Below, piece by piece: positions 5,464 to 62,823 of a stretch of DNA of 64,000 nt. The stretch is taken from NCBI GenBank assembly GCA_023381995.1, contig JAMCVD010000111.1, positions 545-64,544 of the forward strand, in the 5' to 3' direction. This stretch comes from Deltaproteobacteria bacterium. Its GTDB lineage: Bacteria > JAMCPX01. The notes under the pieces were generated by a model that had not been told where the DNA came from, made no database searches, and saw only the letters and a list, made by a program, of their open reading frames with translations. Each line of letters begins with the position of its first letter. The stretch's first letter is position 1. Made by a program: the position numbers and the translations under genes.

Positions 5464-5479
5464 GGGACCGAGTGAGGGT

Positions 5480-6505: not shown

Positions 6506-6522
6506 CCCGACCCCCCTCTCTT

Positions 6523-22499: not shown

Positions 22500-22650
22500 T
22501 GTATCACAATTATCTTACCTATACTCCAATACCGATGTCATCTATACATAAAATATCCCTCATGTAACGCTTAAATCGATCAGCCAGGCATTATATGCTG
22601 CTGATACGGGGGGGTATATACCGTCTAAACCAGATCGCCTTCGGAAATGG

Positions 22651-22889
22651 GGTTCCTCTCCCCTTTGTGATCATGAAGAAAGAGTTTTCTCCTCTGCTCG
22701 TAAAACAAAGCTCTTTTCGGTAAAGGGGGTTACGACCCATAACGTCTCCGTATTTCCATAGCGAGAGAGAAGCAGTCCACGCAGCGTACCACGGAAGCAT
22801 TGCAGGCAGTCCGGATGTGTTTCCCTTCGCAGTGTCGAAAACTCTTTCTTTTTGTTCTATCAGTCCCATGATCACTTTTGGGATAAGAG
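22651..22889. repeat. 239-nt repeat family, copy 1
   Basis: Aligns without indels to 28750-28988 (8 differences) and 55210-55448 (6 differences). The flanks are unrelated. All three copies are co-oriented. Confidence 0.9.
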
Positions 22890-23139
22890 CCGAATATGAA
22901 TGTTTTAAAAGAGCGAACCGGTGCCAATTTGTCACCAGTTCATTTTTTTCATACTTTGTCAGTTTAAACATAAACTCTTTTGGGAATCTTTCTCTATTCC
23001 TTTTAACTTGTCTATTAAGGTGTTTTGTTTCCACGCCATAAAGGATAGCCAGATCCCGATCCAGCATTACCTTCTGTCCCCGGATTAATAAAATCTTCTG
23101 CTCTATCGTTTCGACCGGAACAAGTGCCTTTGTTTCCAT
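22890..23139 (-). pseudogene. ORF6N (KilA-N-like) domain gene, 3'-truncated at the repeat boundary
   Basis: METKALVPVETIEQKILLIRGQKVMLDRDLAILYGVETKHLNRQVKRNRERFPKEFMFKLT... is a typical ORF6N N-terminus. The expected continuation (PYAFTE...) is replaced by repeat sequence. Confidence 0.6.
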
Positions 23140-23409: not shown

Positions 23410-23483
<74 letters not shown>

Positions 23484-28749: not shown

Positions 28750-28988
28750 GGTTCCTCTCCCCTTTGTGATCATGAAGAAAGAGTTTTCACCTCCGCTCGT
28801 AAAACAAAGCTCTTTTCGGTAAAGGGGGTTACGACGCATAACGTCTCCGTATTTCCATAGCGAGAGAGAAACAGTCCACGCAGAGTACCACGGAAGCATT
28901 GCAGGCAGTCCGGACGTGTTTCCCTTCGCAGTGTCGAACACTCTTTCTTTTTGTTCTATCAGTCCCATGATCACTTTTAGGATAAGAG
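28750..28988. repeat. 239-nt repeat family, copy 2
   Basis: See copy 1. It has 8 differences from copy 1 and 10 from copy 3, with no indels. Confidence 0.9.
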
Positions 28989-29315
28989 TTAAAAGATTTA
29001 CTATAAGAAAGCTTGTGTATCAGTCCGGTTAGTCTGAACCCGTGCCCAATGATTCGCTGAAATATTTAAACCGTGCAGTCTACAACCTTTGGCTTCATGT
29101 TTGAACCGAAATCAGGACGGTTATTGACCTTTACAAAAATCTTTCTTACTATCCATAAAGATAATTGATACCAGTAATTCACTGAATGAATTCTCGGAAA
29201 GAGCACTGAATGACGGCATGCCCGATACGATAACGTATTGAAATAAAGTGTCAAAAGTGGCACTGAAGAGTTGACCAAGGGGAAATTATAATGTATACTG
29301 ATTTTCATTGAATTT

Positions 29316-36416: not shown

Positions 36417-37643
36417 ATGTTTGACCATCTATCCGAAAGCGCACGGCTTTATTTGAAAGAGTCGCTCCCCAGACAGCTCGTCTCCGCTGTTGTGAAGGGA
36501 TTGGTCCCCCTTGAGCCCAAGGAGCTGCTGATTGTGATCGCCTATCACTACACGAACGGCGATGAGCAGACGAAGGCCGATGCGGTGAATACCCTCGGGT
36601 CCCTGCCCTCCGGGATCATAGACTCGGTAATCCTCGAGGACGTGCCCGACTTTGTGCTTCAGTTTATATATGTCAATCACAGGCTGTCCCACGGCTCCGT
36701 CTATTCCTTTGTGACGAACAAGAACCTATCGGACGATACGTTCATAGAGCTTGCGAAGAGCGACGATGAGGCGGTCCTCGAGCTCGTGGCGAAGAACCAG
36801 ATGAGGATCCTGAAAAACGACGGGATCTTTGACGCACTTATTACGAACCCCCATTTGCCGAAGATATCGAAGGACCAGCTCATTGAGTTTTTTACGACGG
36901 CGGCCGGCAGGCAGCTCGGGAGGTTGAATATAAAGATCGAAAAAAAGGACGTCGCCCAGCCCCAAAAGCTGGCGGACCTTCCTTCGGCCGTCGGCAGGAC
37001 TGCCGGGCTCCCGTCCGATCGTACGTCCTCGGACCTTCCTTCCGATCTCCAGCGGTCGGGACTCCCCTCTGATGCGGCCATGCTTCCGGCAGACCGTTCG
37101 ACCGCCGATCTTCCTTCCGATGCGCTTGATAACCTTCCGATAAACTTTATGACGGCAGGCCTGCCGTCCGAGCTGATAGAAGAGCAGGAGGAAGGCGGGG
37201 GCCCGGACCAGGCCGGGGCCGAGACAGAGGCCGGCAAACTGACGCTCTACCAGCGCATACAGAAAATGACGGTCTCGCAAAAGATAAAGCTTGCCCTGCT
37301 GGGCAATAAAGAGGCGCGCACGATACTCCTGAGGGACTCCAACAGGGTTGTTGTAGAATCGGTGATGAAGAGTCCCCGCATAACCGACGGCGAGATACTC
37401 GGCATAGCCAATTCGCGCAACGTGAGCGAGGATATTATACGGATGATCGCCGGCAATAGAGAGTGGCAGAAGAGCTACAGGGTCAGACAGGCGCTCGCGG
37501 GCAATTCCAAGACCCCCGTGCCGATTGCATTGAGATTGCTTGAAACTATATCAAAACAGGATTTAAAGAACCTTAGCAACAGTAAGAATGTTTCGTCCGT
37601 GGTTGCGAGTGCAGCAAAGCGGATGACAGGAGATGTGAAATAA
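36417..37643 (+). CDS. Hypothetical helical-repeat protein with central [D/G]LPSD tandem motif array
   Basis: 408 aa. Central DLPSAVGRTAGLPSDRTSSDLPSDLQRSGLPSDAAMLPADRSTADLPSDALDNLP...GLPSE. Helical-repeat-like N- and C-terminal regions. I recognise no family. Confidence 0.5.
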   Translation: MFDHLSESARLYLKESLPRQLVSAVVKGLVPLEPKELLIVIAYHYTNGDEQTKADAVNTLGSLPSGIIDSVILEDVPDFVLQFIYVNHRLSHGSVYSFVTNKNLSDDTFIELAKSDDEAVLELVAKNQMRILKNDGIFDALITNPHLPKISKDQLIEFFTTAAGRQLGRLNIKIEKKDVAQPQKLADLPSAVGRTAGLPSDRTSSDLPSDLQRSGLPSDAAMLPADRSTADLPSDALDNLPINFMTAGLPSELIEEQEEGGGPDQAGAETEAGKLTLYQRIQKMTVSQKIKLALLGNKEARTILLRDSNRVVVESVMKSPRITDGEILGIANSRNVSEDIIRMIAGNREWQKSYRVRQALAGNSKTPVPIALRLLETISKQDLKNLSNSKNVSSVVASAAKRMTGDVK

Positions 37644-50628: not shown

Positions 50629-51318
50629 ATGAGGATGAAGTATGCGTCGAAGCCGGTCGTTGCGGCACCGTTTAATATGACGCTTGGTGCCGGCTGCGAG
50701 GTCTGTATGCATGCACACAGGGTCAGGGCGCATGCGGAGCTTTACATGGGACTCGTCGAGATGGGAGTGGGGGTGATACCGGCAGGCGGCGGTACCAAGG
50801 AGCTGTACCTCAGGGCACTGGGGAACAACGTCGTCAAGCCCGACCCGATGAAGGCAGCCATGCACGCCTTCGAGACCATCGGTATGGCAAAGGTCTCCAT
50901 GAGTGCAAAGGAGGCCGTCGAGATGTACGGCTATCTGGGCCCGGCGGACCGGATTACCCTGAACAAGGATAACCTCATATACGATGCGAAGCAGACCGTC
51001 CTTGCCATGGCGAAGGAAGGGTTCAAGCAGCAAAGACCGAGGAACGATATCCAGGTGGCCGGGAGAGAGGCAATTGCGACGTTAAGGCTGGGTGCTGGAA
51101 ATTTGAGACTTGGTGGTTATATTAGTGACTATGACGAGTTCATAGCGAAGAAGCTCATCAATGTTATAGCGGGCGGCGATGTGCCGCCGGGTACCATGAT
51201 TGGCGAAGAAAGGTTGCTCGATCTCGAGAGAGAGGCCTTTTTGAGCTTGTGCGGCGAGCAAAAGACGCAGGACAGGCTGCACTACATGTTGATGAATAAT
51301 AAACCCCTCCGCAACTAA
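50629..51318 (+). CDS. Second half of enoyl-CoA hydratase fold plus C-terminal region of the same FadB/FadN-type protein (same frame as 48907..50610)
   Basis: KPVVAAPFNMTLGAGCEV...GLVEMGVGVIPAGGGT continues the crotonase fold. Both ORFs are in frame 1 and are separated only by one TAA plus 6 sense codons. Confidence 0.8.
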   Translation: MRMKYASKPVVAAPFNMTLGAGCEVCMHAHRVRAHAELYMGLVEMGVGVIPAGGGTKELYLRALGNNVVKPDPMKAAMHAFETIGMAKVSMSAKEAVEMYGYLGPADRITLNKDNLIYDAKQTVLAMAKEGFKQQRPRNDIQVAGREAIATLRLGAGNLRLGGYISDYDEFIAKKLINVIAGGDVPPGTMIGEERLLDLEREAFLSLCGEQKTQDRLHYMLMNNKPLRN

Positions 51319-51322
51319 AAAC

Positions 51323-51373
51323 GGTGCAGATCTCGGACCCCTCCAGAGGTCTGCACCACCCCTCTATTTTTTT
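51323..51373 (+). terminator. Intrinsic terminator after the fad block
   Basis: GGTGCAGATCTC...GAGGTCTGCACC stem (8 perfect bp plus extension), followed 9 nt later by TTTTTTT (51367-51373). Confidence 0.6.
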
Positions 51374-51480
51374 GCTATGCTTTTCATTGACAAGCGGTGC
51401 ATCACTGTATAAGTTGCTCTGATACATTTAATCAGGATTATATATTTTGGTGGTCATCATACAGGAAGGGTAGAGTGTTT

Positions 51481-52887
51481 ATGGACAAGGTATTGGACAG
51501 GATCTGGAGGTTCTTTAGCTCGGTCAAGCTCGCAATAGTACTTATTATATCGATTGTGGCGACCGCTATTATAGGGACGGTGATCCAGCAGGGATTGCCC
51601 GTCGAGACGTACGTGCGGCACTACGGCGCATCGACGTACAGGCTCCTTCATTTCTTCGATCTGTTCGATATGTACCATTCATGGTGGTTCGAGCTGCTCC
51701 TCATACTCTTTATCGTCAACGTCACCGTGTGCACTCTCGAGAGACTGCCGGCCATATTCAAGATGGTATCGAAGCCGAAGCTCAAGATCCCGATGGAAAA
51801 GATAAACGCGTTCAAAGAAAGGCAGACCGTGAGCTATGGAGGCAGAAAGGAGGCGCTGATCGCTTCTCTGGTCGACAGGCTGAAAGAATCATACAGGAGG
51901 CCGGTCCACACGAGCTCTGAGGAAGGCGATTTCATCTATCTCGAGAAGGGACGCATCGCGAGGTTTGGCCCCTATGTAACGCACCTGAGCCTTATCATCA
52001 TATTCATAGGCGTTTTGGTGGGCTCGTTTCTGGGCTTCGACGCCTATGTAAACCTTTCCCCCGGCGATGCTACGGATATTGTCAGGACGACGAGGGGCAA
52101 TCAGGACCTGACCCTGCCGTTCACGATAAAGTGCAATGACTTCCATATCGAGTTCTATGACTCTGGCATACCAAAGGCGTACAAGAGCGATCTGAGCCTG
52201 CTCCGGGACAATCGGCAGATAGCGCGCAAGGTAATAGACGTCAATCAGCCACTGACATACAGGGGTATTACGATATATCAGGCGTCCTACGGACAGGCGG
52301 GTGCAAGCGACTTCAGTATCGTCTTGACCAGTAGCAACGATGGAGAGGAGGATCTGTCCCTTGCCCGGAACCAATTGTTCCCCTTAAAGGGCGATATTTC
52401 CATAGCGGTCCTCGACTATTCCAGGAATTATCAGGGGTTCGGCCCGACGATACTCGTGGGCGTGTACAAGGGACAGAAGCTCCAGAGCACCTCCATCTAC
52501 CTCGAAAAATACCCCGATTTCCACGGCGCAGAGAAGATAGAGGGATACGGCATAAGGTTCATAAAGGCCCATGAGAGCTATTATACCGGGCTTCAGGTGG
52601 CAAAAGACCCCGGCGCGCCCTACGTCGCAGGGGGGGCGATCGTACTTATCATAGGACTGCTGATGTCGTTCTTCAGCTACAGGCGTAGGGTATGGCTTTT
52701 TATACCCGAGAAATTCGACGGTACGTTTACGGTCGCAGGTGTGGCGGACAGGAACAAGTATTCGTTCGAGTTCGAGTTCGAGAAGCTGGTAGGCTCGATC
52801 AGGGAGATCTGTTCCCCGACCGTCGAGGGGAAAGACACGGTGCCGCCGTCGCCTTCGGATAAGGGCACGAAGGACGGGAGAAGATGA
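51481..52887 (+). CDS. resB: Cytochrome c biogenesis protein ResB/Ccs1 (system II)
   Basis: MDKVLDRIWRFFSSVKLAIVLIISIV..., a large periplasmic domain and a C-terminal TM segment. Start at 51481; the track start at 51397 is an extension. Confidence 0.85.
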   Translation: MDKVLDRIWRFFSSVKLAIVLIISIVATAIIGTVIQQGLPVETYVRHYGASTYRLLHFFDLFDMYHSWWFELLLILFIVNVTVCTLERLPAIFKMVSKPKLKIPMEKINAFKERQTVSYGGRKEALIASLVDRLKESYRRPVHTSSEEGDFIYLEKGRIARFGPYVTHLSLIIIFIGVLVGSFLGFDAYVNLSPGDATDIVRTTRGNQDLTLPFTIKCNDFHIEFYDSGIPKAYKSDLSLLRDNRQIARKVIDVNQPLTYRGITIYQASYGQAGASDFSIVLTSSNDGEEDLSLARNQLFPLKGDISIAVLDYSRNYQGFGPTILVGVYKGQKLQSTSIYLEKYPDFHGAEKIEGYGIRFIKAHESYYTGLQVAKDPGAPYVAGGAIVLIIGLLMSFFSYRRRVWLFIPEKFDGTFTVAGVADRNKYSFEFEFEKLVGSIREICSPTVEGKDTVPPSPSDKGTKDGRR

Positions 52888-52902
52888 TGGCTCTCTCCAA
52901 CG

Positions 52903-53796
52903 GTGCAAAAAAATGAACAAGGGGGTACGATAATGGTACATGCTGGTAGCATGATAAACACGCTGCTCTTGAGCATCGCCACGTTTGTGTATGTGGGATC
53001 GATGTTCTTCTATCTGTTCGGACTGGTATTTAAGAAAAAGTTCCTCGATGCGGCAGGCTTTGCGGTGTTCGTAGGCGCCTTCCTGATCGAGACGGCAGGA
53101 CTGATAGCACGATGGGTGGAGTCGTACCATCTTCAGTACGGACACATACCGATAACGAACCTCTATGAGTCCCTGATATTCCTCTCCTGGACGATAGCGC
53201 TCACGTACATCATCGTGGACCTCAGGTATAAAATAAGGAAGCTGGGATTTCCGATCTCGCTCGCGGCGTTCGTATTTATGGCGTATGCGTCGTTCTCGCC
53301 CAGCGTCAGCAGCAGGATAGAGCCCCTCGTCCCTGCCCTCAAGAGTAACTGGCTCATCTTCCATGTGGTAACGAGCTTCTTCGGTTACGGCGCATTCGCA
53401 ATGGCGTTCGGTGCGTCCATCTTCTACTTGATCAGCGATTGGTATACGAAGCACACGAACGGGAAGGTACTCTCGTATCTGCCGTCCGTCAGGGTACTGG
53501 ACGATATAAGCTACAAGCTCATCATTGTAGGGGAGGTCCTGCTGGCGATCGGCATTGTTACCGGGGCCGCATGGGCCGACTATGCATGGGGGAGGTACTG
53601 GAGCTGGGACCCGAAGGAAACATGGTCACTGATTACCTTCCTGATCTATGTCGTTTATATACATCTGAGGTATTCCTGGGGATGGCACGGCCGGGCCGCG
53701 GCCATCTTCGCAATAGTTGGGTTCCTGTTCGTGCTGTTTACCTACCTCGGTGTTAATCTGGTACTGTCCGGCCTGCACAGCTACGGAAGTACATAG
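52903..53796 (+). CDS. ccsA: Cytochrome c biogenesis protein CcsA/ResC (system II heme handling)
   Basis: WGRYWSWDPKETWSLITFL (WWD motif) and conserved His residues. The exact start is uncertain (52903 to 52951). Confidence 0.88.
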   Translation: MQKNEQGGTIMVHAGSMINTLLLSIATFVYVGSMFFYLFGLVFKKKFLDAAGFAVFVGAFLIETAGLIARWVESYHLQYGHIPITNLYESLIFLSWTIALTYIIVDLRYKIRKLGFPISLAAFVFMAYASFSPSVSSRIEPLVPALKSNWLIFHVVTSFFGYGAFAMAFGASIFYLISDWYTKHTNGKVLSYLPSVRVLDDISYKLIIVGEVLLAIGIVTGAAWADYAWGRYWSWDPKETWSLITFLIYVVYIHLRYSWGWHGRAAAIFAIVGFLFVLFTYLGVNLVLSGLHSYGST

Positions 53797-53841
53797 GGGC
53801 GCGGGCCGGCCTTTCTTCCGACCATCGGAATGAAGGGGAAC

Positions 53842-55206
53842 CTATTTTATCGTTGCGACGATGCCCTGCGTAGCCGGGGAAACGACGTAGATCGCATTTG
53901 TCAGGATATCGCTGACGTATGCCTGCCCCGTTTCCGGATCTATGATGACGTGCTCCGGCAGGCCGAGTCCCAGAATGGTCTTTATCCCTTGCGCTGCGGT
54001 CGTATCGAATGTGAACATATCGTCGTTGCCGAGCGCAGTTGTGCCGGGGTTCATGTAGAACGAGACCCTGTCGTATATGCTGTCGAAGAAGGCACCGTCG
54101 ACGACCTCGTCCGGCTGTAGCCCGGAAGCCGTACCTGCAACGGCGTAGTTTTTCGCAGTGGAATCGTAGACGACGCTCCATGCCTCGGACTGCGTTGTGC
54201 AGTCGTCCGTGGTTATGCCCTGTATGGACGGCGCCTCGTTGGAAGGGACCGAACTTGTTAGCCTGAGGCCCGTGTACGAGCTCGGTATCGAGGGCACGCT
54301 GCACCCATGGTCTATGTCCAGAAAGTGTAGGTAGCCGTCGGCGTTGGCAACGATGCCGAGGTACGAGAAATGATTGTCGTCGAGCAGCACCCTTTGCGGT
54401 GTGATAGCAAAGTCCTTCGGGATCCCGGGTATGGTAAATTCGTATCCGACGCTCCCTGAGTCTGCGTCTATGGACTCAAAGATATAGGCCGTTCCGCTGA
54501 ATGCGACGGCGTACAGTAGTGTCCTGTCATACTGGCTCAGGATTCGCATGGACGCGACAGGGTAGTCGGTGCTTATGGTGGTGATTGGCTCGAGGGTATG
54601 GGGATCCAGGACGTCTATGATCGGCCTGTTCCGGAAAGAAAGGAAGAGCCTGCCGTCGTCAGGCCCCGTTGTCATGGATGACGGGGGAGAGTCCAATGCT
54701 ACCGATGCGGCCGGCGTCATGGAACTGCCCACCGTGAATGATTCCATGTAGGTGTTGCCGCCCTGTGCATCGAGCACGTACAGCATCGAGGTCCGATGGA
54801 TCAGCAACGTTTTCAAGGGATAGCCCTTTAAATATTCGGTACCGGTGATCTGGTTGTCGGCGAGATCGAGCGATTCGAGCATTGCCGTCGACTGTGTGAA
54901 GCCTGCGATATAAAGATGGCCGTTGCTGTATTCCAGAGAGTCGGGGTACATATCGAGCGGTATCGCATTGTACGTGCCGGTGGGCGTGGTTATGCCCATG
55001 ACGGTGTTTGTGGATGTATTTATCTCCGATACCGTGCCTGTAAACATGTTCGCGACGAAGAGGGCCTCCGTGGTCGATGACGGCAGGGAGCCGAGTACCA
55101 TCGAAGAAGGGTAGGTGAAGTTGCTCGTGGACGACGTCGATGTACTGCAAGCGGAGACCGCAGCTGCAATCAGTACGAACAGGAATGTATGGACCGATCT
55201 TCTCAT
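53842..55206 (-). CDS. Beta-propeller-like surface lipoprotein (YVTN-type terminal repeat)
   Basis: ATG 55206 gives MRRSVHTFLFVLIAAAVSAC (lipobox). The body is beta-rich and ends with GQAYVSDILTNAIYVVSPATQGIVATIK. The track ORF up to 55461 reads through repeat copy 3 and is judged chimeric. Confidence 0.6.
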   Translation of the reverse strand: MRRSVHTFLFVLIAAAVSACSTSTSSTSNFTYPSSMVLGSLPSSTTEALFVANMFTGTVSEINTSTNTVMGITTPTGTYNAIPLDMYPDSLEYSNGHLYIAGFTQSTAMLESLDLADNQITGTEYLKGYPLKTLLIHRTSMLYVLDAQGGNTYMESFTVGSSMTPAASVALDSPPSSMTTGPDDGRLFLSFRNRPIIDVLDPHTLEPITTISTDYPVASMRILSQYDRTLLYAVAFSGTAYIFESIDADSGSVGYEFTIPGIPKDFAITPQRVLLDDNHFSYLGIVANADGYLHFLDIDHGCSVPSIPSSYTGLRLTSSVPSNEAPSIQGITTDDCTTQSEAWSVVYDSTAKNYAVAGTASGLQPDEVVDGAFFDSIYDRVSFYMNPGTTALGNDDMFTFDTTAAQGIKTILGLGLPEHVIIDPETGQAYVSDILTNAIYVVSPATQGIVATIK

Positions 55207-55209
55207 TTT

Positions 55210-55448
55210 GGTTCCTCTCCCATTTGTGATCATGAAGAAAGAGTTTTCTCCTCTGCTCGTAAAATAAAGCTCTTTTCGGTAAAGGGGGTTACGACCCATA
55301 ACGCCTCCGTATTTCCATAGCGAGAGAGAAGCAGTCCACGCAGAGTACCACGGAAGCATTGCAGGCAGTCCGGATGTGTTTCCCTTCGCAGTGTCGAACA
55401 CTCTTTCTTTTTGTTCTATCAGTTCCATGATCACTTTTGGGATAAGAG
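55210..55448. repeat. 239-nt repeat family, copy 3
   Basis: See copy 1. It ends 3 nt from the ATG at 55206 (minus strand: ...GGGAGAGGAACC AAA ATG). Confidence 0.9.
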
Positions 55449-55898
55449 CCTGTCCCCCCAATGTTAACCCGAAAAATGCAATAGGGAAGTTTGCTCATTC
55501 GTTTGGGGTACCCATGCGGGGCAGGGGGCGTACGATCCACCTATAAACTATATAAGTTTTTTTCATAAGGAATGGTATAGTCCTCTGTAAGTTTATATGC
55601 ACAAACCGACGTTATGGTTTTTGTCGATATTCGAAGAACACCCCTGTTCGGCGCAGGCTTATCACTCATTACACAAACTTCGCTCTCTTACAAATGCATT
55701 TTTCGGCCTAATGGAAGTTTTTCACTTTGCAGCATCCGCCCCGAACGGCCCTATAGACGCGCCTATAACATTCCAATTGACGCCGTAGTCCACATCGCAT
55801 TTTGGCTGTGATCTTGATCAGGGCGCCGTATTCTCTTGACAACGTCTATCGCTATTGATAAAAATGTCAAAAAATTGCAGGCTTGAACGGGGCCGTCG

Positions 55899-56966
55899 TT
55901 GGCTCTTGTTACCGGCGCTTGCGGATTTACGGGTACGCACATGGTCGAGCTTTTAAAAGAACGCGGATGGGACGTCGTCGCAACGGACCTTAAAAAAGAA
56001 GAGCACGCACAGTACTACTGCGAAGAGGGCGATCTCCATCCTGTGCACTACGAGGAGTACATCTCGAAGCTCGGCGTGCAGTTCATCCCCGCGGACCTTA
56101 CCAAGAAAGAGACCATGGCCCCTCTCTTCACGGGGAAGACATACGATGCGGTCTTTCATATAGCCTCCCTGTACGATTATTTCGCCACGTGGGACGTGCT
56201 CTACAACGTCAACGTCAACGGGGGACGTAACCTTGCGGAGCTCGTCCTTGCAAACAAGGTAAAGAGGTTCATCCACTGGAGTACCGACGGGGTGTACGGG
56301 GAGACGAAGAAGCTCCCCGGCGACGAGGACGAGCCGTACGATCCGCCAAACCTCTACTCCAAGTCGAAGATGGAGCAGGAGAAGGTCCTGTGGGAACTTT
56401 ACAGGACGAAAGGCCTGCCGCTGACCGTGCTCAGGCCGGCGCCCATCTACGGGCCCAGGCACAGGTACGGCGTGTACCACATCCTCTACGGCGTGGAGAA
56501 GATGGGGATGGGGTTCGTCATATCGTGGTTCCCGAAGAGGCATACGCTCATGTTCCCGTCCGTCCACGTGAAGGACCTCGTGAATGCCGCCCTGTTTACC
56601 GCGGAGAAGCCCGAGGCAATCGGACAGGCGTACAACGTGCTGAGCGACTGTATAAGCCAGACGGACATGATCGAGTTTATCTACAGGTCGCTGGGCATGG
56701 AGAGGGTGATCAGAATACCGATGTGGTGGCCGCTGTACAAGGGCCTGACGAAGGTAGGTCTGAAGCTCGTCAGGGGCATCGATGCGCGTGCGAGGAGCCA
56801 GGGGAAGAGGCCCAAGGTGGACGTGCCGATGGTGGAATACATGACGCACCAATACTGGTTCTCCAACGAGAAGATACGAAAGCTCGGCTTCAGGTTCACG
56901 TATCAGGACCCGAGAAAGGGGATGTGGGACTACATAACATGGTGTAAAGAAAGGGGATGGCTATGA
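55899..56966 (+). CDS. NAD-dependent epimerase/dehydratase (extended SDR)
   Basis: TTG start (the only in-frame start after an upstream TGA); ALVTGACGFTGTHMV; YSKSK catalytic motif. Confidence 0.85.
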   Translation: MALVTGACGFTGTHMVELLKERGWDVVATDLKKEEHAQYYCEEGDLHPVHYEEYISKLGVQFIPADLTKKETMAPLFTGKTYDAVFHIASLYDYFATWDVLYNVNVNGGRNLAELVLANKVKRFIHWSTDGVYGETKKLPGDEDEPYDPPNLYSKSKMEQEKVLWELYRTKGLPLTVLRPAPIYGPRHRYGVYHILYGVEKMGMGFVISWFPKRHTLMFPSVHVKDLVNAALFTAEKPEAIGQAYNVLSDCISQTDMIEFIYRSLGMERVIRIPMWWPLYKGLTKVGLKLVRGIDARARSQGKRPKVDVPMVEYMTHQYWFSNEKIRKLGFRFTYQDPRKGMWDYITWCKERGWL

Positions 56967-57361
56967 GAATATTTATACTCGATGTGCCGATCGTAATAAT
57001 CGCCGGTCTGGTCTCGGCCTATGCATACGCGAAGTACCTGCGCGAGAGGCACCCGGACGCATACGTGCTGATGGGACTGCTCGTTGTACTGATATGCTGG
57101 CTCAACGTTGTCCTGTCGAACCTTGGTATCATCGGCCCGTGGTTTACCGGCAGGATGGTCGTGCCGGTGAATACCACGATCGGCATCTTCTATGTGCTTT
57201 CCTATCCGTTGTGGTTCATCTGGGGCGGCGAGAGGTCGCTGAGCTTGCTCGGTAGGTCGAAGGCACAGGGCGGTCTGCTCTGGCCGATCACATTAAAGGA
57301 CACGACGGCCCCGTTCAAGCCTGCATGGTACAACACACAGGACATCAAGGACAGGAAGTAG
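56957..57361 (+). CDS. Small integral membrane protein (4 predicted TM), unknown function
   Basis: 134 aa, hydrophobic segments. The start overlaps the upstream SDR stop by 10 nt. I recognise no family. Confidence 0.5.
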   Translation: MAMRIFILDVPIVIIAGLVSAYAYAKYLRERHPDAYVLMGLLVVLICWLNVVLSNLGIIGPWFTGRMVVPVNTTIGIFYVLSYPLWFIWGGERSLSLLGRSKAQGGLLWPITLKDTTAPFKPAWYNTQDIKDRK

Positions 57362-57391
57362 GGCTCCGAAGACGGGCCCGGGTCTCGGGAG

Positions 57392-58474
57392 GTGCAGATG
57401 GAGAAAAAGGTTTTAATAACGGGGGCGGGCGGTTTTATAGGGAAGAAGCTTACGAAGGCCTTTATAGAGGGCGGGTTTTCCGTAAGGGCAATGGACATAT
57501 CTCTGGAGTTTTTGAAAGAGCCGGCGGCCCTTGGTGCTGAGCCCGTGGCCGCACGCCTCGAAGACAGGGACGCCGTTTCGAGCGCCGCTGCGGGCGTCAA
57601 TACGGTCATTGCGGCAGGCGCCGTCTTCGACCTGGGCGCTCCGCTCGCTGCGATGAGGGCGGCGAACGTCGACGGTGTTCGGAACCTTGTGGAGGCCTCC
57701 CTGAAGCACGGTGTGGAACAGTACATACATTTTTCCACGGTGGGAGTGTACGGCAGACCGGCCGAGATTCCCTGTCGGCCTGGCTCCCCCAAGAACCCCA
57801 GGAACAACTATGAGAGGACAAAATGGGAGGGCGAACAGCTCTTCTGGAGCCTCGTAAAGGACAAGCCCATATGTGCCACTGCCGTACGACCGACGCTGGT
57901 GTACGGGCCCGGGAGCAAATACGGTCATGCGATGTTCCTTTCGATCTTTGAGCTGATGGGGCTCAGGAAGAAGAGGCTGCCCGTGCTTGCAAGCTCCTAC
58001 AAGAACCACCATGTGCATGTGGACGACGTCGTCGGCGTCCTGCTGAGCATAGCGAAGCGGCCGGACGTCGTCAGGAACAAGATATACAATATAGCGGACA
58101 CACTGCCGCTCGGCGTAGAGGGGTTCTACAAAAGCCTTCTGGATGCACTCCAGTTCAGCTACGGCGCACAGGTAAATATACCGCGTCTGCTCTGGAACAT
58201 CGGCATAAGTCTGTTCACGCATTTCCCGAACTTCATATTCAACCGTATCAACGCGGACATAGGGAAGAAGTGGTCGTGGCTCTGTACCCGGCACAGCCTC
58301 GAGCCCGCCCTGAAGCCGAGGTTCGACAGGGACTGGCTCGGATACTTCAAGGGCGACCATATCTACGATACCTCCGGACTCGATGAGCTCGGGTACCAGT
58401 TCAAATACCCTCTCTTCAAAGACGGCGTGAAGGCAACCGTCGAATGGTACAGAGAGCACAGGTGGCTTGCCTGA
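57392..58474 (+). CDS. NAD-dependent epimerase/dehydratase (extended SDR), second paralogue
   Basis: KVLITGAGGFIGKKL; YERTK catalytic motif; 360 aa. Confidence 0.85.
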   Translation: MQMEKKVLITGAGGFIGKKLTKAFIEGGFSVRAMDISLEFLKEPAALGAEPVAARLEDRDAVSSAAAGVNTVIAAGAVFDLGAPLAAMRAANVDGVRNLVEASLKHGVEQYIHFSTVGVYGRPAEIPCRPGSPKNPRNNYERTKWEGEQLFWSLVKDKPICATAVRPTLVYGPGSKYGHAMFLSIFELMGLRKKRLPVLASSYKNHHVHVDDVVGVLLSIAKRPDVVRNKIYNIADTLPLGVEGFYKSLLDALQFSYGAQVNIPRLLWNIGISLFTHFPNFIFNRINADIGKKWSWLCTRHSLEPALKPRFDRDWLGYFKGDHIYDTSGLDELGYQFKYPLFKDGVKATVEWYREHRWLA

Positions 58475-58503
58475 CCGGCGGGCCGGTACGACGACAGAAG
58501 ATA

Positions 58504-58533
58504 TTGCTTGCAAACGCACTCTATTCGTATAAT
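58504..58533 (+). promoter_or_regulatory. Candidate promoter for comEC with near-leaderless geometry
   Basis: TTGCTT (58504-58509), 18-nt spacer, perfect TATAAT (58528-58533), then 8 nt to the ATG at 58542. No SD. Confidence 0.35.
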
Positions 58534-58541
58534 AGACAGGC

Positions 58542-61016
58542 ATGGGACTTTTGCCTGTTTTCGTCGCGTTGGCGGCAGGTATCCTGCTGCATGACGGTGC
58601 TTTTTTCGTACCAGCCTCAGTCTATGTTCTTTCCCCCGTACTGCTTGTCTGCTCGTGCGTATGGGTAAGGGACAGAAGGGTATGGATACTGCTCGCTTCG
58701 TTTTTTACGTTCCTTGCGGCCGGCAGACTGGGCTATCGGGCAGATGACTGTTCGGCCAGGGTCCTGTCCCGTGCGCATGGCGGGAAGATATCGATATCCG
58801 GGTGGGTAGACCAGCCGGTATCGTTTTCGCCGGACATGGAAAAGATGATAGTGAAGATCGACAGGCTCGACGGCAGCGTCGTGGACGGCAACGGTTGCTT
58901 TCTCTGGTTGGGCCTTATCATGGGGCAGCACCATTCCTGGGGGCAGCGCCCAATGCCGGCCAGGGGGAACTATATAACCGCGTTCGCAGTACCAAGGAGG
59001 CCGAAGAATTACAGGAACCCCGGCTCATTCGACTATAGAAAGGGACTCGAGAGGAAAGGCATTGGTGCCGTCGCATACGTCGGCGGGCCGGACGCGCTGT
59101 CCGTCGACTACCGCAAGACGCGTCCCGGGCCCGTCGCCGGGATGTACAGGGCGACGGAGGCCGTCAGGAACGAAATCAGGCGCTCCATAGAAGCGCATGT
59201 GGAGAATCCGGATGTCCGGGGCGTTATCACCGCGCTCGTCATAGGCGATCAGGGCTCTCTGTCCCGGGACGTCAGGAGGACGTTCTCGTCAACGGGCATT
59301 ATTCACATACTCGTCGTGGCCGGTCTGCACCTCGGCATCATAACGCACCTCCTCTATATGCTCCTGAAGTTCCTCCTGTCCCGCTCGAAGTACCTGTGCC
59401 TGCATGCGAACATACCGAAGCTCTCGCTGTCCGCGTCCATGATACCGATGGCAGGGTATATGCTTGTAAGCGGTGCCCATCCCCCTGTTGTGAGGAGCGG
59501 CATCATGATCTCGATCTACTGCCTCATCTTCCTCGTGAACAGGCAGCGGTCCAGGTGGACGGGCATACTTGTCGCCGCCATACTCATACTCGTAATGGAG
59601 CCGGCCGAGCTCTACAGCATCTCGTTCCAGCTCTCGTTCATCTCAGTCGGCTCTCTCATTGCGTTCATGCCCCTTCTGACGAGGCTGACATCGGCGATCG
59701 GCCTGCATAGAGACGCCCCTCTCTCCAGGGCCCTCGGAGCGATCGTCGGCATGCTCCTCGTGAGCTTTTTTATAACGGTGGGGCTTGCCGGTGTCCTTGC
59801 CTTCTACTTCAATACGGTCCCGCTGCTCGGCATCCTGCTGAATGTCGTCGTGATACCCCTCTTCGGGTACGTCATACTGCCCCTGTCCATCGTATCTTCC
59901 ATAGCTGGCACTATAGCGCACCCGGCGCTCCAGTGGGCATGCAGGGACCTTTTTGCGGCGACCTCATGGCTTATACGGATGGGCGTCATGGTGGTACGGC
60001 ATGCTTCGGACCTGCCGATGGCCTCCATAAGGGTCCCGACGCCCTCGGTGTCGGAGCTCATACTATACTATTCGATCGTCCTGGTGTTGATGAACGTCAG
60101 GAAGGCCGGTACCGGGCGCACCATCGTCCTGGCCTCGCCCCTTGTCCTGGCGCTGCTCCTCGATGCAGGTCACGACGTCTACAGGACGCGCCATAGGAAT
60201 GGGCTGTCGGTCACGTTTCTCGATGTCGGCCATGGCGACAGCGCGTTCGTGGAGTCCCCTCACGGCGGGACCATGCTGATCGATGGTGGCGGTGGCTTCC
60301 CCGGCAGCCGCGATATCGGCGAGTCCGTTGTTGCACGATACCTGTGGTCGCTGAAGAGGTCTTCCGTCGATTATGTGATCGCGTCCCATCCGCAGGTCGA
60401 CCATATAGGCGGGCTCGGCTTCGTCGTAAGGCACATGCATGTAAAAGAGGTCTACAGGAGCGACTGTAGGCCGGACACGCAGGTCTACCGGGACTTCATG
60501 GATGCGGTCGGTGCATCAGGGGCTGCGGTCCATACGATAACGGCGTCTGCGGAATCGGTGCGTCTGGACGGTGCCGATGTTACGTTGTTTACCGTGCCGC
60601 ATGAAGCGTGCGGTCCGGCATCGAACGGGGACATAAACGACTACCCCGTGATGGTCAGGATAACCTACGGTGGCGTGGGCTTCCTATTTACCGGGGACAT
60701 CGAGAAAAAAGCGGAGCGGCTTCTCGTAGACACCTATGGGCCGCATGGGATACTGAGGGCGTCGGTCCTCAAGGCGGCACATCATGGCAGCAGGACGTCA
60801 AGCACGGGACGGTTTCTCGATGCGGTCAGGCCGGAGGTCGCTGTCATCTCCGCGGCGGAGGACGACCGGTTCCACGTCCCGTCGAAGGCCGTCTTGAGGC
60901 GCTTTTTTGAAAGGGGCGTCCGCGTAGTGAGGACGGACAGGAGCGGCGCGATAAGGATCACAACGGACGGCAGGCACATAAGGATAGAGGGATACGTGGA
61001 GGACGGCGGGTGGTAG
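58542..61016 (+). CDS. comEC: DNA internalization competence protein ComEC/Rec2 (with C-terminal metallo-beta-lactamase domain)
   Basis: N-terminal OB/DUF4131-like region, polytopic competence domain (GIIHILVVAGLHLG), MBL motif DVGHGDS...HPQVDH...AAHHGS. Confidence 0.9.
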   Translation: MGLLPVFVALAAGILLHDGAFFVPASVYVLSPVLLVCSCVWVRDRRVWILLASFFTFLAAGRLGYRADDCSARVLSRAHGGKISISGWVDQPVSFSPDMEKMIVKIDRLDGSVVDGNGCFLWLGLIMGQHHSWGQRPMPARGNYITAFAVPRRPKNYRNPGSFDYRKGLERKGIGAVAYVGGPDALSVDYRKTRPGPVAGMYRATEAVRNEIRRSIEAHVENPDVRGVITALVIGDQGSLSRDVRRTFSSTGIIHILVVAGLHLGIITHLLYMLLKFLLSRSKYLCLHANIPKLSLSASMIPMAGYMLVSGAHPPVVRSGIMISIYCLIFLVNRQRSRWTGILVAAILILVMEPAELYSISFQLSFISVGSLIAFMPLLTRLTSAIGLHRDAPLSRALGAIVGMLLVSFFITVGLAGVLAFYFNTVPLLGILLNVVVIPLFGYVILPLSIVSSIAGTIAHPALQWACRDLFAATSWLIRMGVMVVRHASDLPMASIRVPTPSVSELILYYSIVLVLMNVRKAGTGRTIVLASPLVLALLLDAGHDVYRTRHRNGLSVTFLDVGHGDSAFVESPHGGTMLIDGGGGFPGSRDIGESVVARYLWSLKRSSVDYVIASHPQVDHIGGLGFVVRHMHVKEVYRSDCRPDTQVYRDFMDAVGASGAAVHTITASAESVRLDGADVTLFTVPHEACGPASNGDINDYPVMVRITYGGVGFLFTGDIEKKAERLLVDTYGPHGILRASVLKAAHHGSRTSSTGRFLDAVRPEVAVISAAEDDRFHVPSKAVLRRFFERGVRVVRTDRSGAIRITTDGRHIRIEGYVEDGGW

Positions 61017-61018
61017 CC

Positions 61019-61978
61019 CTATGTGCCGAGGAGCTCCATGATTGTGAGCAGCTCTTTTTTGATGGGCCTCACCCTGCTTATCGCGTCCTGGAACGGCGTA
61101 AACACGATATCGTCCTTGACGAGCCCTACCATCTTCCCGCTTCCGCCCTTGTTCAGGAAGTCGACGGCAAAGTATCCGAATTGCGAGGCAATCAGTCTGT
61201 CGAACACGGTAGGCGACCCGCCTCTCTGAATGTGTCCCAGCACCGTTACCCGTGTCTCAAAGCCTATCTCGTCCCTGAGCTCTTTCTCTATCTGGTACGC
61301 GCTTGTGGCACCCTCGGCGACGATGATGATGCTGTTGGAGCGCTTCTCCTCATAGCGCCTTCGCAGCTTTCCCGATATTGCCTTTATGTCGTAGGGTACC
61401 TCCGGCACTATCGCGAACTCTGCGCCGCTCGCCATTGCTGACATGACGGCGAGGTAGCCCGATTCCCTGCCCATCACCTCTATTATGAAGGCCCTGTCGT
61501 GGGACGAGGCGGTGTCCTTGATCTTGTCGACTGCATTGATGATGGTATTCAAGGCCGTATCGACGCCTATCGCCATATCGGTCCCGTACAGATCGTTATC
61601 GATCGAGCCGGGGATGCCCACCGTCGTCACCCCGAGCTCGTGGAGCTTGAGGGCACCCGTCAGGGAGCCGTTCCCCCCTATTATTACGAGCGCGTCTATG
61701 CCGTTCTTCTTTATGATGGTTACTGCCTTCCTCCTGCCTTCGTCGAGGAAGAATTCTTTGGATCGCGCCGTTTGGAGTATCGTCCCGCCGAACTGCAGGA
61801 TACCGCTGACGGATCTCGAATCGAGTCTCTGGAACTCCTCGCTGATCAGGCCGGAGTAGCCCCTGTGTACGCCTATGACCTCCCAGCCAAGGGCCAGGGC
61901 CGCCCTTACGCTCGCCCGCAAGGCCGAATTCATACCCGGCGAGTCGCCGCCGCTCGTCAGGACCCCTATTCTCTTCAT
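61019..61978 (-). CDS. pfkA: ATP-dependent 6-phosphofructokinase
   Basis: MKRIGVLTSGGDSPGMNSALRA...GIPGSIDND...MGRESG...GHIQRGG. Confidence 0.93.
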   Translation of the reverse strand: MKRIGVLTSGGDSPGMNSALRASVRAALALGWEVIGVHRGYSGLISEEFQRLDSRSVSGILQFGGTILQTARSKEFFLDEGRRKAVTIIKKNGIDALVIIGGNGSLTGALKLHELGVTTVGIPGSIDNDLYGTDMAIGVDTALNTIINAVDKIKDTASSHDRAFIIEVMGRESGYLAVMSAMASGAEFAIVPEVPYDIKAISGKLRRRYEEKRSNSIIIVAEGATSAYQIEKELRDEIGFETRVTVLGHIQRGGSPTVFDRLIASQFGYFAVDFLNKGGSGKMVGLVKDDIVFTPFQDAISRVRPIKKELLTIMELLGT

Positions 61979-62073
61979 GGCGCTGCCTCCTTATGGCATA
62001 AATGCCATTTCTTTACTTAAAAAGCAATCTGTTGTAACAGGTATGTCTATGGTGGAGACCGATTGACCTGATC

Positions 62074-62823
62074 ATGGACAGTTTCGACGAGCTAAAAGCA
62101 TATTTACCGGACGTCGAGGTCATAGCGACCGATGTCGACGATACGCTCACGATAGGGGGCCTGCTCACATCGGACGTCGTACGGGGGATCGAGTATATCA
62201 ACGGCATCGGCAAACGGGTCATACTTGTTACGGGCCGGTCCGGGGGCGCATGCACGACGCTCTCCCAGTATCTGCCGGTCGAAGCGGTCATCGCGGAGAA
62301 CGGGGGGGTGGTCATAAGAGACCATGATATAGCGCCGGTCAGGCTGCCGGGGGACCATACTTCGAGGCTGGAAAGGTGCTTTCAGGAGATTGTGGGCGAG
62401 TTTCCTGGCATGAGGCAGGCGCAGGACAATCCTTTCCGGCTGACGGACCGCTCCATCGACAATCTCTCCATACCCGGGTACGCCTATGAGGAGATCAGGC
62501 GTATTGCGCATTCCTACGGGCTTACGATAACGGTAAGCTCCGTGCAGACCCATATACTCTCGCCGGAGTGCAGCAAGGCCGCAGCATTGGGGGCCGTGGT
62601 CGGAGGAAGGAGCACGATTACGATAGGGGACTCCGCAAACGATGAGTCTATGTTCGACAGGGAGTTTTTCCCCCTGTCCGTCGGTGTCGCGAACGTAAGG
62701 AATTATCTCGATACGATGGAGCACAGGCCGAGATGGATTATGTCGAAAGAGCAGGGACACGGCTTTATCGAGTTCGTAGAGATACTGAGGTCCGCAGTCC
62801 GGGCGCGTGCCGATCGTCCTTGA
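62074..62823 (+). CDS. HAD-IIB (Cof-type) family phosphatase
   Basis: VIATDVDDTLT (motif I), VILVTGRS (motif II), GDSANDESMF (motif IV). Confidence 0.8.
   Translation: MDSFDELKAYLPDVEVIATDVDDTLTIGGLLTSDVVRGIEYINGIGKRVILVTGRSGGACTTLSQYLPVEAVIAENGGVVIRDHDIAPVRLPGDHTSRLERCFQEIVGEFPGMRQAQDNPFRLTDRSIDNLSIPGYAYEEIRRIAHSYGLTITVSSVQTHILSPECSKAAALGAVVGGRSTITIGDSANDESMFDREFFPLSVGVANVRNYLDTMEHRPRWIMSKEQGHGFIEFVEILRSAVRARADRP

What the first reader, a model, noticed from the sequence alone, without database searches (positions are those of the whole stretch)
55204..55461. Repeat copy 3 supplies the ribosome-binding site of a lipoprotein gene and creates a false 85-aa N-terminal extension
On the minus strand the repeat ends ...AUCACAAAUGGGAGAGGAACC. 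After only AAA comes the AUG (55206) of MRRSVHTFLFVLIAAAVSAC..., a clean lipoprotein signal. The only SD therefore belongs to the repeat. That SD-bearing 3' terminus is partly complementary to the repeat 5' terminus (CUCUUAUCCC against GGGAGAGG, allowing G-U pairs) and lies next to the 9- and 14-bp helices. This gives a possible SD-sequestering structure. The track ORF 53842..55461 starts inside or upstream of the repeat and is chimeric.
Basis: partly seen in the sequence, partly recalled or inferred. Interest (0 to 1): 0.6.

Follow-up and report, generated by a model that had tools for sequence, protein, structure and literature searches.

The report
ISL3-type MITE abutting a lipoprotein gene
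The 241-base repeat is a small non-autonomous transposon (a MITE with ISL3-type ends, about 100-300 copies per genome) that landed exactly on the stop/start overlap of two operon genes, so its end now lies where the lipoprotein gene's ribosome-binding site should be and its accidental open frame lengthens the annotated protein; this is ordinary mobile-element biology, not a dedicated regulatory RNA.

Summary
The sequence-level observation is correct. A 241-nt repeat (55210-55450, minus strand) ends in GGGAGAGGAACC. AAA and the ATG (55206) of a 454-aa lipoprotein follow it directly. All 15 homologues are 420-456 aa, and the eleven aligned ones start at that Met, so the 85-aa extension is an ORF artefact.

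The repeat is a MITE:
- It has 25-bp imperfect terminal inverted repeats.
- It makes 8-bp target-site duplications.
- It has about 100-300 copies per genome equivalent.
- Its ends match those of a complete ISL3-family insertion sequence found in another MAG.

The SD-like motif is the complement of the transposase-recognised terminus. Only 1 of 14 copies abuts a start codon.

In eight relatives the gene lies in rnpA-yidD-yidC-p467-lipo, and its ATG overlaps the p467 stop (ATGA) with no SD. In the source MAG the p467 contig ends ...AAAATGAG|MITE. That matches the window's MITE|AAAATGAG, so the element inserted precisely at the overlap.

The window's upstream flank (55451 onward) belongs in the NCBI assembly to a different, truncated copy. 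It is therefore a chimeric join or a recombination product.

SD donation (-7.9 against about -2 kcal/mol in orthologues) and SD occlusion by TIR pairing are plausible but incidental and untested.

The parts
55210..55450 (-). MITE copy 3 (241 nt), the non-autonomous ISL3-type element
   Evidence: Repeat family D1, alignment. In some searches, 13 further copies or fragments are 96-99% identical and one deleted copy (L019) is about 90%. K-mer depth is about 900-6700 against 7-21 for the flanks.
55426..55450 (-). 5' terminal inverted repeat GGCTCTTATCCCAAAAGTGATCATG (IRL-like)
   Evidence: Matches the IRL of IS copies in L024/L025 (GGCTCTTCTCCCAAAAGTGATCATG) and of L023.
55210..55234 (-). 3' terminal inverted repeat CATGATCACAAATGGGAGAGGAACC (IRR-like). 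It contains the SD-like GGGAGAGG at 55221-55214.
   Evidence: Same as the IRR of the complete ISL3 element in L023 (...CATGATCACTTTTGGGAGAAGAACC). Duplex with the anti-SD is -7.9 kcal/mol.
55202..55209 (-). Right copy of the 8-bp target-site duplication AAAATGAG, which includes the lipoprotein ATG (55206-55204)
   Evidence: The left copy is at the end of the p467 gene on contig JAMCWN010000023.1 (L026...ACACTAAAATGAG|GGCTCTTATCCC) and in a Logan contig (L027). The match is 8/8.
53842..55206 (-). Lipoprotein gene (454 aa, YncE-like beta-propeller, lipobox VSAC). This is the true coding region.
   Evidence: 15 homologues of 420-456 aa, 52-70% identical; the eleven aligned all start at this Met, and the Cys is invariant.
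55207..55461 (-). Spurious 85-codon 5' extension of the track ORF (TTG 55461). It is an accidental open frame through the MITE plus 11 nt of flank.
   Evidence: Absent from all homologues. The frame is broken by 1-nt and 22-nt indels in other copies. No Pfam match.
55461..55706 (.). Second, older MITE-like repeat ('B') directly upstream of copy 3
   Evidence: Copies 83-90% identical in L014, L015, L017 and L029. Raised depth of 100-1000. In L014 the 241-nt MITE lies inside a copy of B.
22651..22891 (-). MITE copy 1, at the truncated 3' end of an ORF6N-domain gene next to a tRNA gene (23410-23483)
28750..28990 (-). MITE copy 2, about 60 nt upstream of a small minus-strand ORF. Its first two bases are AA instead of GG.

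Best explanation
[quoted passage not shown] It is 241 bp long and has 25-bp imperfect terminal inverted repeats, an IRL-like GGCTCTTATCCC... end and an IRR-like ...GGGAGAGGAACC end. It has no transposase gene, makes 8-bp target duplications, and has expanded recently to the order of 100-300 copies in this uncultured 'Deltaproteobacteria' MAG lineage.

Shown: one copy inserted exactly into the ATGA stop/start overlap between p467 and the lipoprotein gene, the last two cistrons of rnpA-yidD-yidC-p467-lipo. The insertion duplicated AAAATGAG. p467 therefore keeps its stop codon and the lipoprotein gene keeps its ATG and its native -3..-1 AAA.

Inferred: the insertion abolished translational coupling. 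It placed the right TIR, whose sequence GGGAGAGG is SD-like, 7-10 nt upstream of the ATG. Independent initiation there is now the most likely way that the normal, exportable lipoprotein is made. The element is transcribed as part of the operon mRNA, since no terminator or promoter is predicted in it. Its two TIRs can pair, which would occlude that SD unless ribosomes or helicases open the stem.

Both the SD-like motif and the helix follow from the transposase-binding termini. They are not an evolved regulatory device.

The 539-aa track ORF is an annotation artefact of the MITE's accidental open frame. The window's sequence upstream of 55450 belongs, in the NCBI assembly, to another, 3'-truncated copy. 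The join across copy 3 is therefore most likely an assembly chimera, or alternatively a recombination between the two copies.
For: MITE features:
- TIRs occur at both ends of all three window copies, against 0 matches expected by chance.
- Perfect 8/8 TSDs flank three copies (TCTCTGAA, AATATGCC, TGATTTTT) and 7/8 TSDs flank two more. Mismatched left/right pairings never exceed 6/8.
- Depth is about 900-6700 against 7-21 for the flanks in two metagenomes.
- 16 copies or fragments were collected in about 170 kb of this lineage's contigs. Several NCBI contigs end inside the element.

ISL3 link:
- A degenerate TIR scan found a complete 1474-bp IS (L023) with the same termini. Its 403-aa ORF hits DDE_Tnp_ISL3 (8.6e-81) and HTH_Tnp_ISL3.
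- IS left ends lie at contig ends in the sister species MAG (L024, L025).
- A 297-bp MITE variant has as its right end an inverted 56 nt of that IS left end, and it is flanked by its own 8-bp TSD.
- Published ISL3 elements and an ISL3-derived MITE have GGCTCTT... termini and 8-bp duplications (PMC6305408, PMC11448079).

Insertion site:
- rnpA-yidD-yidC-p467-lipo is conserved in all eight relatives that have upstream sequence, with an ATGA overlap and no SD.
- L026 and L027 end ...AAAATGAG|GGCTCTTATCCC.

SD and occlusion.

False extension.

Doubtful join:
- NCBI contig 81 stops inside the MITE at window position 55392.
- Contig 55 carries the window's upstream flank attached to a MITE that is truncated after 195 nt and runs on into unrelated DNA.
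- Window copy 3 has no TSD of its own (0/8).
Against: - No autonomous ISL3 copy was found in the DNA of this MAG that I could read, only an IS-left-end remnant in L019. Current mobility is therefore inferred from the 96-99% identity of the copies.
- There are no RNA data, so transcription through the element and use of the SD are untested.
- The 16S tail used for the duplex energy is generic, not taken from this genome.
- The promoter and terminator scan covers only sigma-70 type promoters and intrinsic terminators.
- Chimeric assembly and genuine recombination cannot be told apart with unitig-level data. The two copies concerned share a rare variant (alignment column 147), which makes either possible.
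- Depth-based copy number assumes that all copies sit in one population.
Confidence: 0.82

Rival explanations
1. The repeat is a dedicated cis-regulatory leader, a riboswitch- or thermometer-like SD-sequestering RNA that controls the lipoprotein gene.
For: The fold is stable (z = -3.6). The SD is predicted to be fully paired in the full-length leader and more open when the 5' 30 nt are removed.
Against: The same element occurs at about 10^2 loci next to unrelated genes, in both orientations relative to its neighbours, inside another repeat and inside a tRNA-like sequence. Only 1 of 14 copies abuts a start codon. Orthologous genes in eight relatives have no such leader. There is no Rfam match even at E<=10. 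The helix is the pair of TIRs shared with an ISL3 IS. The copies are too alike for covariation.
Confidence: 0.04
2. The repeat is a multi-copy structured non-coding RNA gene, for example a transposon-associated guide RNA or an sRNA family, and not a DNA transposon.
For: It has sharp 5' and 3' boundaries, strong predicted structure and high sequence conservation.
Against: 8-bp target-site duplications flank the copies. The termini are inverted repeats homologous to both ends of an IS that carries a DDE_Tnp_ISL3 transposase. No promoter is predicted and there is no Rfam family.
Confidence: 0.03
3. The N-terminal extension is real in vivo. In the operon configuration, ribosomes that terminate at the p467 TGA re-initiate at the duplicated, overlapping ATG. 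They then read through the open MITE frame (83 codons) into the lipoprotein frame and make an extended protein as the main product.
For: MITE + TSD = 249 nt = 83 codons. The left ATG (AAAATGAG|G) is in frame with the stop-free MITE frame and with the native ATG. The ATGA coupling signal is preserved at the left junction.
Against: All 15 homologues lack any extension, and the conserved signal peptide and lipobox must be N-terminal for export. The extension has no family match. The frame is not maintained across copies. A strong SD-like motif lies at the proper distance from the native ATG.
Confidence: 0.12
4. The window's arrangement (lipo-MITE-repeat B-epimerase) is genuine. Homologous recombination between the operon copy and the truncated copy moved the lipoprotein gene away from its operon in this strain, so the gene now needs a new promoter as well as the MITE's SD.
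For: The window sequence reads continuously across the element. It differs from NCBI contig 55 by a patch at 55882-55897 that run X2 shares, so it comes from another sample or strain. The two copies share a rare variant and are good recombination substrates.
Against: The NCBI assembly of the near-identical MAG does not make this join. The 134-nt stretch shared by just these two copies is exactly what misleads short-read assemblers. No sigma-70-like promoter is predicted on the minus strand of 55100-56000.
Confidence: 0.3

Closest known systems
ISL3-derived MITE of Microcystis aeruginosa PCC 7806 (PMC11448079)
   Same: A non-autonomous element whose inverted termini start GGCTCTT like the ISL3-family IS of the same lineage. 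It has 8-nt direct target repeats, is multi-copy, and affects neighbouring gene expression.
   Different: Unrelated core sequence and host phylum. Here the termini continue ...CTCCCAAAAGTGATCATG, so the outward-reading complement is SD-like. The copy number here is much higher, on the order of 10^2.
ISL3-family insertion sequences (e.g. ISArsp7, PMC6305408; the complete element in L023)
   Same: GG(C/T)TCTT... terminal inverted repeats of about 25 bp and 8-bp target duplications. L023 has 22-24 of 25 terminal bases in common with the MITE ends.
   Different: The MITE has no transposase gene, and its 190-bp core is unrelated to the interior of the IS.
Mycobacterial interspersed repetitive units (MIRUs) and other intercistronic repeats (review PMC3184786)
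   Same: Small repeats lying between cistrons of an operon and transcribed in the polycistronic mRNA. They have open frames whose ends overlap the stop and start codons of the flanking genes.
   Different: MIRUs are 40-100 bp and systematically intercistronic. Here the intercistronic position is one event among mostly intergenic insertions.
Neisseria REP2 and Correia elements (review PMC3184786)
   Same: Repeats that bring expression signals (promoter, RBS, RNA hairpins) to adjacent genes.
   Different: REP2 is regularly placed upstream of genes and carries promoter + RBS + ATG. This MITE shows no such placement (1 of 14 copies) and no predicted promoter.
Repeat-ORF fusions / Rickettsia palindromic elements (review PMC3184786)
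   Same: An open frame in a repeat fuses to a chromosomal ORF and extends its annotated 5' end. Element + TSD is a multiple of 3.
   Different: There is no evidence that the fused frame is translated or conserved. Indels break the frame in other copies.

Membership tests
Bacterial MITE | Terminal inverted repeats | tested here: met
   25-bp TIRs with 19/25 complementary positions, present at both ends of every full copy.
Bacterial MITE | Target-site duplication of fixed length | tested here: met
   8 bp. Three copies are 8/8 and two are 7/8. The cross-contig pair L026/window is 8/8. Control pairings reach at most 6/8.
Bacterial MITE | Small, multi-copy, no transposase gene | tested here: met
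   241 bp. The only long frame has no Pfam hit and is broken by indels in other copies. Depth ratio is about 100-300.
Bacterial MITE | A cognate autonomous IS with the same termini in the same genome | tested here: inconclusive
   A complete IS with matching termini was found only in another MAG (L023), and IS ends in the sister species (L024, L025). In this MAG I found only an IS-left-end remnant (L019) and MITE variants that carry 56 nt of the IS end. The whole genome was not available to scan.
ISL3 family (as the mobilising family) | Termini beginning GG(C/T)TCTT and 8-bp duplication | tested here: met
   Compared with ISArsp7 and the Microcystis ISL3 elements and with L023.
ISL3 family (as the mobilising family) | DDE_Tnp_ISL3 transposase between such termini | tested here: met
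   L023 ORF 76..1287: PF01610 at 8.6e-81 and PF13542 at 2.6e-10. The test applies to the related IS, not to the MITE itself.
Cis-regulatory SD-sequestering RNA (riboswitch or thermometer type) | Conserved association with the regulated gene family in relatives | tested here: not met
   Eight orthologous loci have p467 overlapping the start codon and no leader.
Cis-regulatory SD-sequestering RNA (riboswitch or thermometer type) | Covariation supporting the structure, or a match to a curated RNA family | tested here: not met
   No Rfam match at the gathering threshold or at E<=10. Covariation cannot be assessed because all but one deleted copy are 96-99% identical.
Expression-signal repeats of the REP2 type | Systematic placement at a fixed short distance upstream of start codons | tested here: not met
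   Only copy 3 of 14 is within 10 nt of a start codon. Where downstream gene coordinates are available, other co-oriented copies lie 76-236 nt from the start codon, and 5 of 14 are not co-oriented (with the gene tables).

The most novel reading that the evidence does not exclude
The MITE family may be adapted for harmless insertion into operons and coding regions. Element + TSD is 249 nt (3 x 83), one frame is stop-free, and the right terminus carries an outward-facing SD. A copy that lands between or within cistrons would then preserve the reading frame and restart translation of the downstream gene, a built-in relief of polarity that could help explain its expansion to about 10^2 copies.
Probability: 0.08. 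Interest if true: 0.6.

Novelty: new member of a known kind. Interest (0 to 1): 0.3.

Why it matters
There are three practical consequences.

1. Annotation. This MITE's open frame produces dozens of spurious 'hypothetical proteins' of 54-98 aa and false N-terminal extensions in the two NCBI MAGs of this lineage. These should be masked.

2. Assembly. The element breaks the MAG assemblies of this lineage and probably mis-joins them. Synteny claims near any copy, including the window's 55451 onward, need long-read confirmation.

3. Biology. The locus is a clean natural example of a transposon landing on an ATGA stop/start overlap. It replaces translational coupling with a terminus-borne SD that the element's own inverted repeat can mask. 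That makes it a convenient test case for how MITEs rewire translation inside operons, but it adds no new principle.

Tried and rejected
- Rfam at the gathering threshold and at E<=10 gave nothing for the repeat.
- blastn of the repeat against plasmids and phages gave no match.
- An exact 26-mer scan of genome contigs gave 0 hits.
- The 22-mer scan of JGI metagenomes gave two loci (L012, L013). Both are chance 26-nt matches inside an unrelated coding region.
- The ncRNA or guide-RNA idea (IS200/IS605-type) was dropped once TSDs and ISL3-type TIRs were seen.
- A test of whether the 80-aa frame is coding was limited. There are too few substitutions for a codon-position test, but frameshifting indels occur in several copies and there is no Pfam hit.
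- A test of whether copy 1 is a precise in-frame insertion in the ORF6N gene was inconclusive. Removing the MITE plus 8 nt extends the Pfam match only from profile position 62 to 68 of 86, and the flanks match 5/8.
- A search for RNA-seq runs found none.
- The look-up of P0017 found nothing on record.
Full report
**Observation**

The window holds three direct copies of a 241-nt repeat, all on the minus strand and 96-98% identical: 22651-22891, 28750-28990 and 55210-55450.

Read on the minus strand, copy 3 begins GGCTCTTATCCCAAAAGTGATCATGG and ends CATGATCACAAATGGGAGAGGAACC at 55210. AAA follows, then the ATG at 55206-55204, which opens MRRSVHTFLFVLIAAAVSAC....

The mechanical ORF 53842..55461 (TTG start, 539 aa) runs through the whole repeat.

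**The true start of the gene**

A database search with the 454-aa product from 55206 found 15 homologues (52-70% identity). Fourteen are 452-456 aa and one is 420 aa. The eleven I aligned all begin at the Met aligned with 55206, and their lipobox Cys is invariant. The only longer entry is the window's own chimeric call.

The 85-aa extension is therefore not part of the conserved protein. It has no Pfam match.

**What the repeat is**

Copy number. Contigs from two mine-tailings metagenomes laid on 54700-56100 give a k-mer depth of 7-21 on the unique flanks and about 900-6700 across 55210-55450. The loose ends fall exactly at the element's boundaries. That is on the order of 100-300 copies per genome equivalent. 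It agrees with three copies in this 64-kb window.

Distribution. The translated repeat hits only small 'hypothetical proteins' of two NCBI 'Deltaproteobacteria bacterium' MAGs, with locus tags M1517_ and M1491_. Many are flagged partial at contig ends.

More copies. From contigs of GCA_023481185.1 I collected eleven more copies, and later two further fragments (L026, L029). These copies have three properties:
- All but one are 96-99% identical; the exception (L019, about 90%) carries a 22-nt deletion.
- They carry 25-bp imperfect terminal inverted repeats. The degenerate 25-mer matches both ends of each window copy, with 0 matches in shuffles.
- They are flanked by 8-bp direct duplications. 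Three are perfect (TCTCTGAA, AATATGCC, TGATTTTT) and two match 7/8. Mismatched left/right pairings never exceed 6/8.

The long frame is not coding. It is not maintained, because 1-nt and 22-nt indels occur in other copies.

No RNA family matches the repeat, even at E<=10. These are the defining features of a MITE.

**Which transposase family**

Published ISL3 elements, and an ISL3-derived MITE of Microcystis, have termini starting GGCTCTT and 8-bp duplications (PMC6305408 and PMC11448079).

A degenerate scan for the MITE's terminus in 185,579 species genomes gave five loci.
- L023 (a Thermodesulfobacteriota MAG) is a complete 1474-bp IS. Its ends are GGCTCTTCTCCCAAAAGTG... and ...CATGATCACTTTTGGGAGAAGAACC. 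Its 403-aa ORF hits DDE_Tnp_ISL3 at 8.6e-81 and HTH_Tnp_ISL3.
- L024 and L025 are from the MAG that holds the 70%-identical orthologue of the lipoprotein. They carry identical IS left ends at contig ends.
- The first 56 nt of that IS left end, inverted, form the right end of a 297-bp MITE variant in L015 and L016. The L015 variant is flanked by its own perfect 8-bp duplication.
- An IS-left-end remnant split by a MITE lies in L019.

The SD-like GGGAGAGGAACC is therefore the complement of the conserved terminus GGTTC(C/T)TCTCCC that the transposase recognises. The 'sequestering' helix is the pairing of the two TIRs.

**Where copy 3 sits**

In every relative with upstream sequence (eight MAGs) the gene is the last cistron of rnpA-yidD-yidC-p467-lipo. 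Where the junction was read (L001/L003, L004, L005, L011), its ATG overlaps the p467 stop (..CAAATGA..) and there is no SD. Predicted duplex energy there is -2.4 to +0.3 kcal/mol, against -7.9 in the window.

In the window that synteny ends exactly at the MITE, and copy 3 has no duplication of its own (0/8).

I predicted that the p467 gene of this organism should end ...AAAATGAG followed by the 5' end of the MITE. The p467 orthologue lies on contig JAMCWN010000023.1 in rpmH-rnpA-yidD-yidC-p467. That contig reads ...ACACTAAAATGAG|GGCTCTTATCCC... and stops 133 nt into the element. A Logan contig from another run shows the same junction.

With the window's ...GGAACC|AAAATGAGAAGA this gives a perfect 8-bp duplication. 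The element therefore inserted into the ATGA overlap. p467 kept its stop codon and the lipoprotein gene kept its ATG.

**The window's upstream flank**

- NCBI contig 81 is identical to the window from 50842 to 55392 and then ends, inside the MITE.
- NCBI contig 55 matches the window from 55256 to 62474. In that contig the MITE copy is truncated after 195 nt and continues into unrelated DNA towards a UbiA gene.
- Window copy 3 carries the 5' variant of the truncated copy (A at 55424, where the p467-linked copy has G) and the 3' variants of the lipo-linked copy.
- The two copies share a rare variant (alignment column 147) and so have a 134-nt stretch in common that other copies lack.

The join across copy 3 is therefore either a short-read assembly chimera, which I favour at about 0.7, or a real recombinant.

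The right junction is the one that matters for the finding. It is independently supported by contigs of two runs that extend from the gene to 55234.

**How it most likely works**

Shown:
- The structure of the insertion.
- The loss of the overlap arrangement.
- An SD-like motif (GGAG/GAGG cores) 7-10 nt upstream of the ATG.
- No other SD upstream of the ATG.

Inferred:
- The element is transcribed within the operon mRNA. No intrinsic terminator or sigma-70 promoter is predicted in 55100-56000.
- Ribosomes start at 55206 using the TIR-borne SD.
- The TIR stem competes with this initiation. In the partition function the G residues of GGGAGAGG are unpaired with probability 0-0.06 when the full element is present. 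The values rise to 0.03-0.7 without the 5' 30 nt.

One further point. MITE + TSD is 249 nt. The duplicated ATG at the left junction still overlaps the p467 stop, and it is in frame with the stop-free MITE frame and with the native ATG. Coupled re-initiation could therefore give a +83-aa product. I rate this as a minor or non-functional product, because the signal peptide would be internal.

**Is the SD donation a property of the family?**

No. Of 14 copies only copy 3 lies within 10 nt of a start codon. Where downstream gene coordinates are available, the other co-oriented copies lie 76-236 nt from the start codon. Five are not co-oriented with the downstream gene. One lies inside another repeat and one inside a tRNA-like sequence (with the gene tables).

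**Verdict**

The annotation claim (false extension, chimeric ORF) is supported.

The functional claim (RBS donation with a sequestering helix) is plausible in silico but incidental. It follows from the termini of an ISL3-type MITE that happened to land on a stop/start overlap.

This is a new member of a known kind, of modest interest. Its main value lies in annotation and assembly hygiene for this lineage, and as a neat natural test case.

Noticed in passing
window 55876-55899 (-) and 57302-57325 (+): A perfect 24-bp inverted repeat, ACGACGGCCCCGTTCAAGCCTGCA, brackets the epimerase gene and a small membrane-protein gene. In NCBI contig 55 and in run X1 the left arm is replaced by a 16-nt patch (10 mismatches, 55882-55897) that reads GGAGGGTACGATGACTAAG, which is an SD plus an ATG start for the epimerase. 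The window allele leaves only a TTG start at 55899. This could be gene conversion, an inversion end or an assembly artefact.
   Followed up: partly
window 55461-55706: A second, older MITE-like repeat family ('B', with termini CCGAAAAATGCA.../...TGCATTTTTCGG) lies directly upstream of copy 3. Copies 83-90% identical are in L014, L015, L017 and L029, with a weak match in another MAG (L008). Depth is 100-1000 in the metagenomes. In L014 the 241-nt MITE is inserted inside a copy of B.
   Followed up: partly
window 22591-23139 and 23410-23483: MITE copy 1 lies at the truncated 3' end of an ORF6N-domain gene (Pfam match 9e-23, profile positions 2-62 of 86). That gene lies just downstream of a tRNA gene, which looks like the edge of an integrated-element remnant. 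Removing the MITE does not restore the domain.
   Followed up: partly
L014 14373-14613: A MITE copy is inserted, with a 7/8 duplication (AAATCCT), into a sequence that resembles the 3' end of the tRNA at window 23410-23483 (GGTTCAAATCCT...TCCCCGCTA). This may be a tRNA gene or an att-site remnant hit by the element.
   Followed up: no
L015 9979-10274 and L016 3883-4178: A 297-bp MITE variant has as its right end an inverted 56 nt of the parent IS left end. The L015 copy has a perfect 8-bp duplication, so the composite transposed as a unit using two IRL-type ends.
   Followed up: partly
window 53842-55206 and L001 4601-6004: The lipoprotein and the upstream p467 protein are distant paralogues (25% identity over 205 aa). 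Both are YncE/lactonase-like beta-propellers, and the pair is conserved downstream of yidC in this uncultured lineage. Their function is unknown.
   Followed up: no
window 37002-37121: Three overlapping 45-nt direct repeats (60-76% identity, start-to-start spacing 27 and 48 nt), reported by the repeat finder as family D2. They may be a repetitive coding segment.
   Followed up: no
runs X4 and X5 (sediment metagenomes) on window 55210-55450: The MITE is present at low depth (3-9) in sediment metagenomes in which the neighbouring lipoprotein gene is not detected at 90% identity or more. The element family therefore also occurs in other populations or relatives.
   Followed up: no
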